From: Perna viridis
Taxonomy: Eukaryota
Reading direction: 5' to 3'
NCBI GenBank assembly: GCA_037379345.1
Contig: CM074523.1
Location: 30,891,678 to 30,955,677 of the forward strand
DNA: 64,000 bases
Of this stretch, positions 6,001-15,000 are shown in pieces. The position numbers are program-made. Numbering within the stretch: position 1 is the stretch's first letter; every line of letters starts with the position of its first letter.

Positions 6001-9000
6001 CAGTAATAATAGAAAACAGCAAAGAAAAGCCAACACCAAGACTGACAGAAAAGTTAAAGATCTTTAATGAAAAGATTCATGCAAAAAAAGTATAAATGTT
6101 TACAACGGAGAATTTTTGGCCAACTTTAATGATAAACTATTGCATTCAAAATGGACTTTTAATTTCCTTGCAAGAATGCATCTTTTTAGTACATTGTAAG
6201 AAGATTTGAAATAACAAAAAAAATCCAAAAACAGCATGAATCTTATTCATTAATATGGCTAAAGCAGAATTTTAGAAAATTGCTGCTGACACTCACAATT
6301 GTTCTTGTTTTTGTGCAAAATTGACACATTTAAATAAAAAAAAACATGCCCAAAAACAATATCTTTTAAATGGTGAATTACATTGAAATTGATAAAAACT
6401 TAAAATAGGAAAACTACTTCCTTGTTGAAAACAAATTCACTTGAAATTTCACTTCACTCAACTTTTTTTTATTGGATACATGGACATCATTAACGTTAAT
6501 GAAAATAATTTTAAAGTCCTTTTACCTCTACTTCCTGAGGTTGTTCTTTGTCCTCTGTGACCTTGAATGTGATCTCAGCCTCAGTTTGATCTTTGGGTTT
6601 GATTTCAAATGATGTCACTTCCTCTTCAACATCTTTGCTAGGCTTTGGTGACTCATCCTCAATCAGTTCTGTTTACAAATAATTCGAATGATATTATTGC
6701 CCAAAAATACTATTTCTTCATAACAAGAAATAAAAAAAAAGCAATCAATTTTTTGAAAAGTTTGAATATGACTTTATGTCTGACACACATAGTTTATACC
6801 TAGGAACCATGTGAAGTTTCATTGAAATTAAATTTTAAGTAGCACTCCAGCTAAGAATCATGCAAAATGTGATTCATGGGTAAAAAGCCTACATATTTTT
6901 ATTTTTGATATTTTGTTTAAATTGCCATAGTAAACAGAAATTAACATTCAGTTTTTCATATAACCTGTGTTCTTAGGAAATAAAAAATTATATAGAATGC
7001 ACTGTAGATTTCAAAATTAAGGGAGATAACTCTGTAAATGACACTCAAATACAGTAGAATCTATTGGATTTTCAATATTGATTATCTCCTAAGCAGATTT
7101 GAATGAATAATTACATATTTCAAAGTATAGACCCATATAACAACTTAATTACAAACATAAAAATATGTAGCCTTTTTTGGGGTGTATCACATTTCAGATT
7201 TTGTATGATTCTCACAAAGACTACTACTTAATATATTACAGAACAATTAACATTTAAAAATGTTGCTGACAGACGTCCATGGGGGCATCACACACAGGAC
7301 AATATATGTCAGGCTTATCTCCAATTCCAAGCTCAAGCAAAAAATTATATTCCTTCACACACCTATGATGTCTAACCTTCCTATAAAGTTTTATCTTAAT
7401 ATATTGAGTGTTTGAGGAGGAATAACCCAAACAAGATTCCAACAAGTAAAATCTTTAAGTTGTATTATCTCCCTTTGCAGGCATTGGACAATAATTTTCT
7501 TCTTCCATCCATACAATGCCTTACCATTCATTCAAATTTTGTCAAAATCAATACAGTGGATGGGCTTACAAGATCTGTAGATGGGTGGACAGATGGACAG
7601 ACTGACTAAGTGATTCCTATATACCCACAAACTATGTTTGTGCATTGGAGGGGGAAGGTGTCATAGCAAACAAAAATACAAACCATTAACAGTAAGTACA
7701 GCTGTAGTCGCAGCCTCGCCAGCCTCGTTAATGGCCTTGACAGTGTATATACCACTGTCTTCTGGGAAGGCTTCAGGGAGTACCAGAGTGCTCTCCCCTG
7801 GTTCATCACCTGGAATCACCTGATAGATATCATCAGTTTTGATTGGCTGGTCATTGACAAACCATTGGATTTCAGGTGCTGGTTGACCTTTAGCCTTGAC
7901 TGTGAACTTGGTGGATTCACCTTCCTGTACTTTGAGGTCACCAATGCCGATGACAAACTCTGGTGACACAATATCTTCTGGCTGCTTCTGAAAAATGAAA
8001 ATAAAAAAAAAAACCTCTTAAATGTACCTCAGTTGAATGTTAAAGCCTATAAAGCCTATACCCTGAAATTTTTAGAGGTGGGTGGGAGAGTGGTTGTTTA
8101 TATTTGCTTCCAAGGAGGTTTGTTTCAGTTCTTGGAATACTCTGATTAAGTGTGTGATATATATATATATATATACGTCTGATCTCATTTGAACAGTACC
8201 CGAAGACAAACACTTGAAAGAATATAAACACAATATGCAATAATTCAAGTAACCTCAAAGCAGAGTGCTTTGATGTAATTTAAGCTGATCAAGTTAGACA
8301 AATCCTGAAGAAGGCTTACTCAAATACGTTGGATATTAAGTTCTCTGAATTGTTCCTAATATATTGTGTTATCCAGAATTTAGACAATTTATCATACCTT
8401 TCGAAGAACATCTCTGTGGTCAACTTGTTCAGGTTCATAGACTGTTTCAGTCTTCTCAACATCAGTTGTGTCCTCAGCAAATTTCCTGTTAATAGGACAA
8501 GTAAACAGATAATGATTCTCATCTTCATCATCAATACTGCAATTATAATTTGTATCTGTCTCACTCTTATAAAGAATAATATTGAAATGCTTCAGAATGA
8601 GATACCATTTTTCATTTTACACTTTTCCTTTTTGGACTTCAAAAGTACATTTGACAACACGTCCTGTGAAGCTCCTTGTATTTATGAAAAGTAATTTTCT
8701 TGATGTCAAAAAATGGGTTTTTTTTTCAGTTCATTACAAAAAACAGTTCTTCACATTAAGCATTAAAAATTTATGACACATTTTACAAAATGTTAAAATA
8801 TTCAGACTAGCCAAACACATCTAAGTCTACTACATCCTTATGCCACATTAACCAAAGGTAAACATTACCTGGATTTGAAAGTTGTTTTGTTTAGCACATT
8901 CCTAAAATCTAGCTGTTCAGATGTATAATACACACCGACTTTTGTTTTTCTTCACATGCAACAAAACACATAGAATGCAAAATTAGTACTGGGTTCAATC

Positions 9001-12000: not shown

Positions 12001-15000
12001 AATTCATTTATCAAGGGAGGTACTAGTAACTTGTGACGACTTTTTTCAATTAAATTTTTTTCAACTTACTTGGACTTGACAGTGGATTTCTGTAGTAAGC
12101 TACGGAAGTCTTTCTGCTCAGCTTTAAATTTCATTCCAACTTTTGTTTTCCTATACATCACACAATACAAACATCATGCTAATTAGCCATGCAAAATAAT
12201 ATTATCCCCCTTTTCAATGCACATTTCTTGTATTCATTAGTACTACAAATTACATTAAATGCAGAATGTAATTAAATACAACCAACTAAATTTTCCACAA
12301 CTTGCATTCCCTAAAAAATAGAAAATGGTGAAAATGTCCCAATATAACAAAAGTTTACCCTTTGGAAATATATGGAAAAAGATTAGTAACTCACTGTCAA
12401 TACTCTATCGAAACTATTCGGCCATTTCTGCTACACTAAAAATAAACTCGGATGCAGAAAGGAGTATATCTTTTTGAAAAAAATGCCTGAATTGTAGTCA
12501 TACATGACTCAAAGTAGTTCTATCCACCAGGTGGCATTAAAAAAATTGGTTAATATCACTAGAAATAAAGAACAATAACTCTGTCAAGAATTTTGGCACA
12601 AAGCAAGGAGCTAGGAAAAAAAGAAGTAAAAATTTCAACCAGTAAGACTATAATTTTAAAACCAAATCGATCAAATTCTGGACAAATTCTTTTGCCTCCA
12701 AGGTTTTTCTTTAGTGTAACTAGAAAGGCTTAGGAGTTCCAATTGTGTCAATACTATGTTCTATAATGGCACTTAATACTCAATAAACTATAATACAATT
12801 TTTTCTTTGCATTGATGTTAATATTAACTATTACATGCATCTTTAATGTTTTAATTTGAAAAAAAAATCACAACAGATTTTGAAAACATGACACAATTTC
12901 TACTGCTACTAGAGTCACAATGTTATAAACTAAACAAAATAATACTATTTTTTATCATTCTAACAATATACACCGGTCATTTCTGATCATTACATCCTAA
13001 AAACTTATTTTCTCTTGTAATTTGATCATGCAATGAAAATTAATACTCCAATAAAGAGGCATCAAGTATCAGTCTCTGTAAGAATCAGGCAGTAGGTGAA
13101 ACATGAAAAAAAACCCATCATTTTGATAGTGTAATTAGACTATTTGCATCATCAGAATCAAGGAAACCAAACAAGATATTCCATATAATGCTGCAGCATT
13201 GAGTTAGAAAATCATACCACACAAAATAATAATAGAGAAAGTAACCTTCAGTGATATTACATTGTCATATCAGTGGGGTTTTGACAAACATGTTTCTGAT
13301 TTTTCCCATTTGGCCTGATTCTTACAAACACTTACACTTAATGATTCCCAAAAAAATATATAAATAAAATATTCAAATAGTTAAAAATTATAAAAAAAAA
13401 ACAACCTTTAACAGGCATTTTCTTTACAAAATGTTCTTAATTGGATGTGACCTCTTTAATTCTAAGACTTTAAGTGGAGCTATTACAGAAAATTGTCAAA
13501 CTTAAAAAAAACATCTTGAAATTTTCTCAAGTCCCAAAGTACTTACACTTGGGTTTGGAGTTGGTCCCTGAAGTCAGTTTGTTCTGGGCCTGATGGTCCT
13601 ATAAATCCAAAAACAACAATCAAGATTAAATGGAAATCTATAGTCATATATGTTTATTACTATTTTGTTTCAAATCCCTTTGATCTTGCTATACAGTAAT
13701 TTTCAATCTTATGCCAATCAAGAAAGAATGAAAATTACAGCACAGCTGCACAACATACATGATGTTACGTAGCACTCTGCCGAAAAATAGTCCTTAAAGG
13801 AAACTTTGCAGTGCTTATCAAACTTACATATTTAGGTCAGGAAAACTGAAAACAAAAGAAAACTAATACTTTACACTTCTGCAAAACAGCGATAATTTTT
13901 TTTTTTCAACTCCTGGGAGTTTCTCCTGCTCATCTTGTCTCTCATTGAAAAAATATCAAATAATCTAATAATCTCTACATCCACATGAGATTAAAAAAGT
14001 TTGCTATTGCTGATATCATCATTATATTTTACATATAGAAATCTCAATTTAGTTGCCATGGATACTTACTTTTCACCAGGAGAGAGACAGAGACAGTTGA
14101 TTCTCCGTGATCATTCTGAGCTATGACTTTGTAGGTTCCTGCATCTTCAGCTAGGACATCCTGGATGGTGATTGTTGTGTGGAAAAGGTGGTCATCTTGA
14201 ATTGTGTCAATCTGTGTTTTCTTGTCACTAGAAAGTGGCATGTCATTCTTGGTCCAGTGTACCTATGGACAAAGAAATACCCATGTAAGAAAGTTTTAAG
14301 CTGTGCTTACAAATGAAGTTACTTAAGTCCCCTTACATTCCCAAACAGTTAAAAAAACTATAAAAAAATGAATTAGTTCAAAACCAAGTTCCATTCAATT
14401 TGGTTGAATTTTTAAGACTTTCAAAGAGGGCCCCTATTTTGAATTGTGGCCATATAGAATTTGCAGTTATCTTGGATATTCTGAAATATGTCATTCTTGA
14501 TTCAGTGTATCTATGGACAAAGAAAATCCATGTAAGAATAGTTTCAAATACAACATAATCATATTAATAAAGAGCTGCTCTTTAGTATAAATTTTGATTG
14601 AATAATTTTTGAACTTCTTTGTCTGTTTAAAAAAACTTGTTGATTACCTTTATAAAGTGATTAACTTTTTTAATAACACTTTGACTCTTAATTTTGAAAT
14701 GTTGCCTGCTGCAAAAGTTTTACAGGCTTGGAGTCAGAGAATTAGAAGAGGGTAGTCTCTAGGGTATTATTAGTCATTTGTTCAGGCAAAATAATGCATG
14801 AACACAATTTTTTTTTATTATGTCAAAGTTCTCATATGAAACATTGAAACATGTTAGTTCCTATTTCTCCTGGTCTTTATTCAAAGGTTATTACCTGTGG
14901 TCCAGGATTGGCCACAATTTTGGCCTCGAAGGTAACTCTTTGCCCAACATCAACTGTTTGGAATTTAGGTTTCTGTACAAAGGATGGAGCCATCCATTCA

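What the first reader, a model, noticed from the sequence alone, without database searches (positions are those of the whole stretch)
7684..13598. Ancient tandem duplication of a four-exon [3x DFRxxL + Ig] module
Exons Q-R-S-T and U-V1-V2-W are paralogous. Q and U end in the same GT|gtaagt phase-2 junction. R and V1 are both 81 nt and both start KTKVG. S and V2 share the acceptor taacag|GAAATTTG. Ig6 and Ig7 are roughly half identical by eye (VQEGE..KF..K.KG.P.PE..WF...QPI..D.IY.VIPG..GESTL.L.E.FPED.G.Y.V.A.NEAG.A...AVL.V). The introns show no obvious similarity, so the duplication is old and the exons appear to be under purifying selection. The sixth motif has drifted to DHR. R and V1 are frame-preserving (2-2), so each triad could be spliced down to two motifs and actin affinity tuned.
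Basis: partly seen in the sequence, partly recalled or inferred. Interest (0 to 1): 0.65.

Follow-up and report, generated by a model that had tools for sequence, protein, structure and literature searches.

The report
Old duplicated actin-binding motif block
A giant muscle-protein gene, probably from a mollusc, carries two old tandem copies of a short block of exons encoding MLCK-type actin-binding motifs plus an Ig domain, which is a real but fairly ordinary kind of gene growth.

Summary
The sequence facts hold. Eight minus-strand exons (13598-7684) with GT..AG borders form two colinear blocks with identical intron phases (1>2, 2>2, 2>0, 0>1). They encode six EQxD[FH]RxxL motifs and two I-set Ig domains.

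R/V1, S/V2 and T/W are clear paralogue pairs. The Ig domains are 57% identical, E 5e-38, against 30-43% for other Ig pairs in the window. Introns share nothing. Synonymous sites are saturated (pS 0.74) while pN is 0.28, so the duplication is old and both copies are under constraint.

The interpretation needs correcting. The gastropod orthologues (Aplysia "titin, partial" and an Elysia protein) have one array of four motifs (a-b-c-d) plus one Ig. U is the b motif. Q has the a core with b-like flanks. The ancestral block was therefore probably four motifs plus an Ig, and each copy later lost one motif.

The two copies differ from each other as much as each differs from Aplysia. Whether Ig6 and Ig7 are sisters is unresolved. 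Splicing-based tuning could not be tested, and I found no signal for it. Actin binding is inferred from vertebrate MLCK only.

The parts
14895..15025 (-). First half of the Ig domain that precedes the motif array (pre-DFR Ig), phase 1>0
   Evidence: Open frame with AG acceptor and GT donor. Not searched jointly with its second half.
14070..14262 (-). Second half of the pre-DFR Ig, phase 0>1
   Evidence: PF07679 E 4.9e-12, profile positions 32-90. Falls in a starred clade (97/95) with the Ig that precedes the motif array in Aplysia, Elysia, P0139, P0049 and P0074.
13547..13598 (-). Exon Q, 52 nt, phase 1>2, first motif (DFRDQL at 13558-13575)
   Evidence: The core equals the a motif of the orthologues and the flanks are b-like.
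12070..12150 (-). Exon R, 81 nt, phase 2>2, c-type motif (DFRSLL at 12093-12110)
   Evidence: 15 of 26 residues shared with V1; score 77, z 17.
11117..11201 (-). Exon S, 85 nt, phase 2>0, d-type motif (DFREVL at 11123-11140)
   Evidence: 14 of 28 residues shared with V2. 17 identical bases across the acceptor.
10391..10688 (-).
   Evidence: PF07679 E 1.6e-23. 57% identical to W. 58% identical to the Aplysia post-array Ig.
10087..10207 (-). Exon U, 121 nt, phase 1>2, acidic linker plus b-type motif (DFRGVL at 10098-10115)
   Evidence: 10 of 13 core residues shared with Aplysia motif b against 5 of 13 with motif a.
8869..8949 (-). Exon V1, 81 nt, phase 2>2, c-type motif (DFRNVL at 8892-8909)
8398..8485 (-). 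Exon V2, 88 nt, phase 2>0, d-type motif with His in place of Phe (DHRDVL at 8404-8421)
   Evidence: It still fits the wider D-x-R-x-x-L form used for vertebrate long MLCK (PMC2185581, passages).
7684..7987 (-).
   Evidence: PF07679 E 1.6e-23. 57% identical to T. 50.5% identical to the Aplysia post-array Ig.
6526..6668 (-). Candidate next exon X, 143 nt, acidic, starts in phase 1 as required after W
   Evidence: AG acceptor, GT donor and an open frame. No Pfam family. Its likeness to the start of U is not significant.

Best explanation
The region is part of a giant Ig-rich and PEVK-like-repeat-rich muscle-protein gene of the titin/MLCK kind. The organism's closest named relatives here are gastropod molluscs.

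The region encodes an array of short D-x-R-x-x-L motifs of the type that anchors vertebrate smooth-muscle and non-muscle myosin light chain kinase to F-actin. The array lies between I-set Ig domains.

An old unequal crossing-over between two phase-1 introns, each lying just after an Ig exon, duplicated a four-exon block: a first-motif exon, an 81-nt motif exon, a third-motif exon and an Ig exon. The ancestral block most likely held four motifs (a, b, c, d) and one Ig, as Aplysia and Elysia still do. After the duplication the first exon of each copy shrank differently. Q kept one motif with the a core and b-like flanks. U kept b behind an acidic linker.

Both copies have since been kept as coding sequence. 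The product is two triads of motifs with the same internal spacing (23, then 34-35 residues), separated by one Ig domain.

The likely function is multivalent binding along an actin filament, one protomer per motif.

Shown: exon structure, paralogy of three exon pairs, age, constraint, orthology to the gastropod array.

Inferred: the four-motif ancestor, the mode of duplication, and actin binding.
For: Structure and chance:
- Eight exons with canonical borders and the same phase series in both blocks.
- Six motifs sharing EQxD[FH]RxxL, found only here on the coding strand.

Paralogy:
- T/W share 53 of 93 residues, E 5e-38, against 30-43% for the nine other pairs among five full-length Ig domains in the window.
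- R/V1 and S/V2 are reciprocal best among 15 pairs of motif exons.
- blastn of block 1 against block 2 hits exons only, in colinear order.

Age and constraint:
- pS 0.742 and pN 0.279 over 167 aligned codons, with counts added per exon.
- Fisher p 6e-18.
- Corresponding introns are unalignable.

Phases: both blocks are multiples of three and run 1>1.

Orthologues:
- Aplysia californica 'titin, partial' and Elysia chlorotica EGW08_001885 carry pre-Ig, a, b, c, d, Ig.
- Their motif spacing is 24/23, 23, 36. The window has 23, 34 and 23, 35.
- U is b-type and Q is intermediate between a and b.
- The window's pre-array Ig half sits in a starred clade (97/95) with the pre-array Ig of those proteins and of P0049, which ends in Fn3, protein kinase and Ig.

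Function by analogy:
- Five DXRXXL motifs, including a DVRXXL, target long MLCK to stress fibres (PMC2185581, abstract and passages).
Against: - T and W are not recovered as sisters in any of three trees. The order of duplication and speciation is therefore open.
- The two copies share 82 of 148 residues over c+d+Ig. That is exactly what copy 1 shares with Aplysia (82 of 148); copy 2 shares 78 of 148 with Aplysia. The two-block state could be ancestral and the gastropod state derived.
- The Q-U pairing is weak by sequence.
- The exon structure of the gastropod genes is unknown to me, because only their proteins were seen.
- Motif spacing (23 and 34-35) differs from the 28-29 residues of vertebrate long MLCK.
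- No kinase or Fn3 domain lies in the window among the 14 open-frame pieces scanned. Membership of the MLCK gene lineage therefore rests on one unnamed protein.
- No binding experiment or model supports actin binding for these motifs.
- The organism of the window and of P0139, P0049 and P0074 is unknown, because could not be made.
Confidence: 0.6

Rival explanations
1. The ancestral unit was exactly three motifs plus an Ig, and Q and U are straightforward paralogues. The two-block state predates the split from gastropods, which later lost the first c-d-Ig. The two 81-nt exons are cassette exons whose skipping lowers each triad to two motifs and so tunes actin affinity.
For: - Same phases, same donor word and 34 of 45 identical bases at the 3' ends of Q and U.
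- R and V1 are 81 nt, phase 2>2.
- The copies are as far from each other as from Aplysia. W joins the unnamed P0139 Ig rather than T in the free trees, though weakly (72/85).
Against: - Q carries the seven-residue core shared by all three a motifs, while U is b-type. Both a and b therefore existed before the split.
- Removing exons R+S+T (464 nt) is not frame-preserving, so the gastropod state cannot arise by a clean exon-block loss.
- All three comparator proteins include the c-type motif.
- There is no splicing signal particular to R and V1. Pyrimidine content upstream is 11 and 12 of 20, against 9 to 14 of 20 for the other small exons. The upstream-flank likeness of R/V1 (z 3.0) is matched by the non-paralogous pair R-S (z 3.1).
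Confidence: 0.2
2. The duplication is real, but the motifs do not bind actin here. They would be conserved linker elements with another role, for example a phosphorylation site or a docking site for another sarcomere protein. The likeness to the MLCK motif would then be shared ancestry without shared function, or convergence on a short word.
For: - The motif is only six residues long.
- Spacing differs from vertebrate MLCK.
- The sixth copy has His for Phe, and P0139 has lost the fourth motif altogether, which shows tolerance to loss.
- C. elegans MLCK-1 works without such motifs (PMC6232974, one passage).
Against: - The wider context EQxDFRxxL, the spacing and the flanking Ig domains are conserved between the window, two gastropods and an unnamed protein with an Fn3-kinase-Ig end.
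- Position 2 of the motif also varies in functional vertebrate arrays, which include DVRXXL.
Confidence: 0.25
3. There is no duplication. The likeness of the two blocks would be what any two Ig domains and any two acidic linkers of a giant muscle protein show.
For: Ig domains of such proteins are all alike at 30-43%. Acidic linkers give chance matches: U against exon X has z 0.7, and 7 of 57 windows of another acidic exon score as high.
Against: - T/W identity is 57%, clearly above the 30-43% background.
- R/V1 has z 17.
- Both blocks have identical exon lengths (81 nt) for R and V1, identical phases and colinear order.
- 17 identical bases span an acceptor.
Confidence: 0.02

Closest known systems
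DFRXXL / DXRXXL actin-binding motif array of vertebrate smooth-muscle and non-muscle myosin light chain kinase (PMC2196421 and PMC2185581, passages read)
   Same: A repeated six-residue D-x-R-x-x-L word in an unstructured stretch between I-set Ig domains. There are several copies in a row, and position 2 is variable (F or V in vertebrates; F or H here).
   Different: - Spacing is 23 and 34-35 residues instead of 28-29.
- There are two triads split by an Ig domain instead of one run of three or five.
- The host gene has giant PEVK-like tandem arrays.
- No kinase is seen in the window.
- Actin binding is not tested.
Aplysia californica 'titin, partial' (P0230, identical over the region to P0063) and Elysia chlorotica EGW08_001885 (P0214)
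   Same: The same pre-array Ig, the same motif types (the window's six motifs fall into types a, b, c and d) with the same spacing, and the same post-array Ig (58% and about 48% identical to T). These are the orthologous region.
   Different: - They have one array of four motifs and one Ig, where the window has two blocks of three motifs and an Ig each.
- They carry an IQ-like word after the Ig that I did not find in the window.
- Aplysia has an extra short repeat between motif d and the Ig.
Invertebrate long MLCK-type proteins (unnamed P0049; Drosophila Stretchin-Mlck is recalled from memory, not examined here)
   Same: P0049 has many Ig domains, then two DFRxxL motifs, an Ig, Fn3, a protein kinase and an Ig. 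Its pre-array Ig groups with that of the window.
   Different: P0049 has only two motifs, 37 residues apart. Its organism is unknown. The window shows no kinase.
Molluscan twitchin (PMC12040844, passages read)
   Same: A giant Ig-rich muscle protein of molluscs that binds actin and has a PEVK-like part.
   Different: [quoted passage not shown] The window has no Fn3 in the pieces scanned and has huge repeat exons. I found no open paper that places DFRXXL in twitchin.
Exon-block duplications in titin-family genes (recalled general knowledge)
   Same: Growth by tandem duplication of phase-compatible exon blocks encoding Ig domains and linker units.
   Different: Nothing of principle. Here the block carries a defined binding motif, and the event is old, unlike the 90-97% identical coding arrays elsewhere in the same window.

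Membership tests
DXRXXL (DFRXXL) actin-binding array of MLCK | Several copies of D-x-R-x-x-L in one unstructured stretch | tested here: met
   Six copies, five DFR and one DHR, all with the context EQxD[FH]RxxL.
DXRXXL (DFRXXL) actin-binding array of MLCK | Regular spacing of 28-29 residues between motifs (PMC2185581, passage) | tested here: not met
   Spacing is regular and conserved but different: 23 and 34 in block 1, 23 and 35 in block 2, and 23-24, 23, 36 in gastropods.
DXRXXL (DFRXXL) actin-binding array of MLCK | The host protein ends in Ig, Fn3, a calmodulin-regulated kinase and a telokin-like Ig | tested here: inconclusive
   No kinase or Fn3 in 14 open-frame pieces of the window; the window may simply end before them. 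One unnamed relative (P0049) has that end. The two gastropod proteins listed carry no kinase family.
DXRXXL (DFRXXL) actin-binding array of MLCK | Binds F-actin, one motif per actin monomer | not testable with these tools
I-set immunoglobulin domain (PF07679) | A full-length match above the curated cut-off | tested here: met
   T and W each score 83 bits against a cut-off of 23.7, covering profile positions 1-90. The nearest solved single domains are titin Z1Z2 and telokin.
Tandem exon-block duplication | Colinear order, equal phases, paralogue pairs closer to each other than to other units of the gene | tested here: met
   This is met for R/V1, S/V2 and T/W. For Q/U it is met by position and phase only.
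Alternative cassette exon (R and V1) | Transcripts both with and without the exon | not testable with these tools
   No transcript data. Frame preservation is met (81 nt). Weak-acceptor and conserved-flank signals are not specific to these exons.
Twitchin | Alternating Ig and Fn3 domains with a C-terminal kinase and only a small PEVK-like part (PMC12040844, passages) | tested here: not met
   No Fn3 in the pieces scanned. There are four giant repeat arrays of 4 to 7 kb. The scan of the window was not exhaustive.

The most novel reading that the evidence does not exclude
A molluscan giant titin/Stretchin-MLCK-like protein carries two MLCK-type actin-binding triads held one Ig domain apart. This would make it a six-point thin-filament tether whose valency is set per muscle type by skipping the two 81-nt exons, or a whole 516-nt or 594-nt block. 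It would give molluscan muscle a second adjustable link to actin beside twitchin. It would also show that the MLCK actin anchor is an ancient bilaterian module that predates the vertebrate kinase isoforms.
Probability: 0.1. Interest if true: 0.6.

Novelty: new member of a known kind. Interest (0 to 1): 0.3.

Why it matters
- It places the MLCK-type D-x-R-x-x-L actin anchor, so far described in the open literature I could search only for vertebrate MLCK, inside a giant titin-like gene of a lophotrochozoan. Orthologues in two gastropods are annotated merely as titin or as a hypothetical protein.
- It gives a dated contrast within one gene: a very old, selectively maintained block duplication beside young coding arrays that are 90-97% identical.
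- It offers a simple test system for how motif number and spacing set actin affinity, using 3+3 motifs here against 4 in gastropods.
- As a genomic event it is ordinary. Giant muscle genes grow by exon-block duplication.

Tried and rejected
1. A first paper search with 'twitchin' as a word start matched 'twitching' and was useless.
2. Searching exon T against longer proteins gave one hit, a spider titin fragment at 35% identity. This was uninformative.
3. The listing of cluster members could not be made. The organisms of P0139, P0049 and P0074 therefore stay unknown.
4. Idea: the acidic start of U is paralogous to the start of exon X, which would move the duplication boundary. Rejected: z 0.7 with 1225 of 5000 shuffles as high; the first 24 residues alone give z 2.2 (199 of 5000); and 7 of 57 windows of another acidic exon score as high.
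5. Idea: conserved intron flanks mark R and V1 as regulated cassette exons. Rejected: R/V1 upstream z 3.0 (23 of 2000), but the non-paralogous pair R-S has z 3.1 (25 of 2000). None of 28 downstream pairs is above z 1.5.
6. Idea: R and V1 have unusually weak acceptors. Rejected: 11 and 12 of 20 pyrimidines, within the range 9-14 of the other five small exons (Q, S, U, V2, X). Only the Ig exons T and W are stronger, at 16 and 18.
7. I looked for the IQ-like word that follows the gastropod Ig and found none in any minus-strand frame of the window.
8. A seventh, hidden motif exon in the Q-R intron: the motif scan found none. A degenerate relic was not sought by alignment.
9. A motif-only search from P0139 among proteins of 1902-5000 residues returned only the two Aplysia entries, 2 of 63 candidates.
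10. P0209 (Styela clava unc-89-like; 29% identity, 98% coverage) was not examined.
11. No structure or complex prediction was run. The Ig fold is not in doubt, and actin could not be supplied.

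
Full report
**Scope and limits**

The window holds no N. Its G+C content is about 27-42% in 2-kb steps. The closest named relatives of its proteins are gastropod molluscs.

The spliced (joined) model was never built, searched or folded. Where a figure spans several exons it is a sum of per-exon counts.

This leaves two things open. A search with the whole spliced array might have found more distant relatives. The two Ig domains that are split by an intron were only ever seen as halves.

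Several resources were unavailable or unsuitable:
- The genome contig collection holds only bacteria and archaea, so I did not use it.
- There are no animal genomes or transcriptomes in reach.
- Supplementary files were not needed.

**The observation**

The gene runs on the minus strand. Reading the reverse complement gives eight exons with AG acceptors and GT donors:

| Exon | Coordinates | Length | Phase |
|---|---|---|---|
| Q | 13598-13547 | 52 nt | 1>2 |
| R | 12150-12070 | 81 nt | 2>2 |
| S | 11201-11117 | 85 nt | 2>0 |
| T | 10688-10391 | 298 nt | 0>1 |
| U | 10207-10087 | 121 nt | 1>2 |
| V1 | 8949-8869 | 81 nt | 2>2 |
| V2 | 8485-8398 | 88 nt | 2>0 |
| W | 7987-7684 | 304 nt | 0>1 |

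The finding's start and end are exactly the donor of W and the acceptor of Q.

A scan of all six frames of the 64-kb window for D[FHYL]R..[LIVM] gave 7 matches on the minus strand. Six lie in these exons, and all six have the longer form EQxD[FH]RxxL. The seventh sits just after a stop codon. The 22 plus-strand matches include 17 copies of one antisense word of a coding tandem repeat.

T and W are full-length I-set Ig domains (PF07679, E 1.6e-23 each).

**Is the pairing more than chance?**

- T and W share 53 of 93 residues (E 5e-38).
- Among the five full-length Ig domains of the window, the other nine pairs share 30-43%.
- Among the 15 pairs of the six motif exons, R/V1 (score 77, z 17) and S/V2 (score 56, z 7.7) are reciprocal best. 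None of 1000 shuffles reaches either score.
- Q/U (35) is not reciprocal best. Q scores 36 with V2, and U scores 46 with S.
- At the DNA level, block 1 against block 2 gives colinear hits in exons only:
  - T/W: 65.9% of 208 nt
  - R/V1: 68% of 122 nt
  - Q/U: 75.6% of 45 nt
  - S/V2: 17 of 17 nt at the acceptor, and 73.8% of 42 nt
- There is also one cross-match of motif cores, S against U.
- Corresponding introns have no match better than E 0.14.

**Age and selection**

Nei-Gojobori counts were made per exon pair and then added. They give 80.5 differences at 108.5 synonymous sites (pS 0.74, at saturation) and 109.5 at 392.5 non-synonymous sites (pN 0.28, dN about 0.35) over 167 codons. The excess of synonymous change has Fisher p 6e-18. 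dS cannot be estimated, so only an upper bound can be stated: the ratio is well below 0.38. Both copies have intact frames and splice sites.

**What the gene is**

The window also holds further Ig exons and four very large single-exon arrays of E/V/T/K/P-rich coding repeats. These arrays match no Pfam family.

A profile of T and W found 12,951 proteins at E up to 0.001 in the representative library, and the best 150 were listed. Of the 151 proteins then stored, 9 had at least two motif copies or one motif in the EQ context. Four of these look like vertebrate long MLCK by length and motif position. Because they are unnamed and could be human-like, I did not use them.

- **P0063** turned out to be identical over the region to the named Aplysia californica 'titin, partial' (P0230).
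- **Elysia chlorotica EGW08_001885** (P0214) matches at 55% over the whole 251-residue query.
- Both gastropods show one array: an Ig, then four motifs I call a, b, c and d, then an Ig that is 58% (Aplysia) identical to T and 50.5% to W.
- **P0139**, an unnamed protein, has a, b, c, a d segment without the motif, and the Ig.
- **P0049**, another unnamed protein, has two motifs between Ig domains and ends in Fn3, protein kinase and Ig. That is the MLCK layout.

In the window, the Ig just before Q is split into two exons (15025-14895 and 14262-14070). Its second half falls in a starred clade (97/95) with the Ig that precedes the array in all five comparators. The region is thus the orthologue of the gastropod array. 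It also belongs to a conserved unit, a pre-array Ig followed by the motif array, which occurs at least once in a protein of MLCK architecture.

**How the two blocks relate to the single gastropod array**

R and V1 are c-type and S and V2 are d-type. Over a 13-residue core:

| Exon | vs b (Aplysia, Elysia) | vs a (Aplysia, Elysia) |
|---|---|---|
| U | 10, 9 | 5, 4 |
| Q | 8, 9 | 8, 7 |

Q has the exact seven-residue core of all three a motifs but b-like flanks.

Spacing between motif starts is 23 then 34 in block 1 and 23 then 35 in block 2. In the gastropods it is 23-24, 23, 36. Both a and b therefore existed before the window's lineage and the gastropods parted.

Phases constrain the event. 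Each four-exon block is a multiple of three (516 and 594 nt) and runs from a phase-1 intron to a phase-1 intron, so a crossing-over between the introns after two Ig exons duplicates it cleanly. The three-exon set R+S+T (464 nt) would not keep the frame, whether gained or lost.

My reading, which is inference, is as follows. A four-motif block was duplicated as four exons. The first exon of each copy then shrank: Q to a single motif that looks like an in-register collapse of a onto b, and U to b behind an acidic linker. The reverse history, with two blocks ancestral and a gastropod deletion, needs an in-frame deletion inside exons and is not excluded.

**Timing**

Over c, d and Ig, the two copies share 82 of 148 residues. 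Copy 1 shares 82 of 148 with Aplysia, and copy 2 shares 78 of 148.

In the Ig tree, T, W and the post-array Ig of Aplysia, Elysia and P0139 form one clade against four other Ig domains (80/92, not starred). Inside that clade nothing is resolved:
- T+W as sisters costs 2.5 log-likelihood units (p-AU 0.34).
- T with the gastropods costs 1.0 (p 0.26).
- W with the gastropods costs 4.4 (p 0.08).

The duplication is therefore about as old as the split from gastropods, on one side of it or the other.

**Mechanism**

In vertebrate MLCK, three DFRXXL motifs bind F-actin at one kinase per three actin monomers, and mutating them weakens binding (PMC2196421, passages). Long MLCK has five DXRXXL motifs spaced 28-29 residues apart. 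One is DVRXXL, and the five are sufficient for stress-fibre targeting (PMC2185581, abstract and passages). The His in the sixth motif therefore still fits the wider consensus.

By analogy, each triad here would lie along three actin protomers, with the Ig domain as a spacer between triads. This is not shown. The spacing differs from vertebrates, and no binding test was possible.

**Splicing**

R and V1 can be skipped in frame, and so can each whole block. I found nothing that singles R and V1 out.
- Upstream pyrimidine content is 11 and 12 of 20, within the range of the other small exons.
- Their flank likeness is no greater than that of non-paralogous pairs.
- All three comparator proteins include the c motif.

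Only transcript data can decide.

**Literature**

- 'DFRXXL' as a whole word occurs in 7 papers of the library, and 'DXRXXL' in 3.
- Of these I read passages of three: two on vertebrate MLCK, and one stating that C. elegans MLCK-1 lacks the motif.
- The others I saw only as listing titles and abstract starts, none of which concerns a mollusc or a titin-like invertebrate protein.
- Searches for molluscan titin or PEVK and for Stretchin gave reviews only, which I saw as listings.
[quoted passage not shown] That does not fit this window.

I therefore found no open description of this array in molluscs. Subscription journals are not covered.

**Verdict**

The duplication, its age and its constraint are supported. 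The composition of the unit needs correcting, and the splicing idea remains untested. It is a new member of known kinds, an MLCK-type motif array and an exon-block duplication in a giant muscle gene, and is of modest interest.

Noticed in passing
window 36694-43093, 31811-35745, 20416-27274, 58466-63674 (minus strand coding): Four very large coding tandem arrays inside single open exons of 2019 to 3929 codons, rich in E, V, T, K and P. Units are 327 nt x 19.6 (97% matches), a 147-nt family, 357/147 nt (92-96%) and 135 nt x 38.6 (90%). They match no Pfam family. They are young, in contrast with the old motif-block duplication.
   Followed up: partly
window 9489-9729 (intron between U and V1): An intronic minisatellite of a 33-nt unit, 7.4 copies, 74% matches. 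Similar small arrays lie at 1240-1399, 16284-16594, 50062-50353 and 55337-55641.
   Followed up: no
window 10391-10688 and 7684-7987: Both duplicated Ig domains lack the B-strand cysteine that the Aplysia, Elysia and P0139 counterparts keep. They share GEST and NEAG with P0139 but not with the gastropods (sequences printed).
   Followed up: no
P0230 about 2750-2765 and P0214 about 1040-1055; window searched whole: The gastropod orthologues carry an IQ-like calmodulin-binding word shortly after the post-array Ig. No such word is found in any minus-strand frame of the window.
   Followed up: partly
window 55626-55886 with 54003-54332, and 14895-15025 with 14070-14262: Two Ig domains are split by an intron at about one third of the domain. 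The other five Ig domains lie within one exon each.
   Followed up: no
P0074 residues 1270-1435: An unnamed protein with six motif copies, three of them spaced 28, 29, 29 as in vertebrate long MLCK. Two copies carry an extra residue before the final L. Its organism is unknown.
   Followed up: no
window 2311-4158 (minus strand): A 615-codon acidic open frame downstream of the array with no Pfam match, probably a further exon of the same gene.
   Followed up: no
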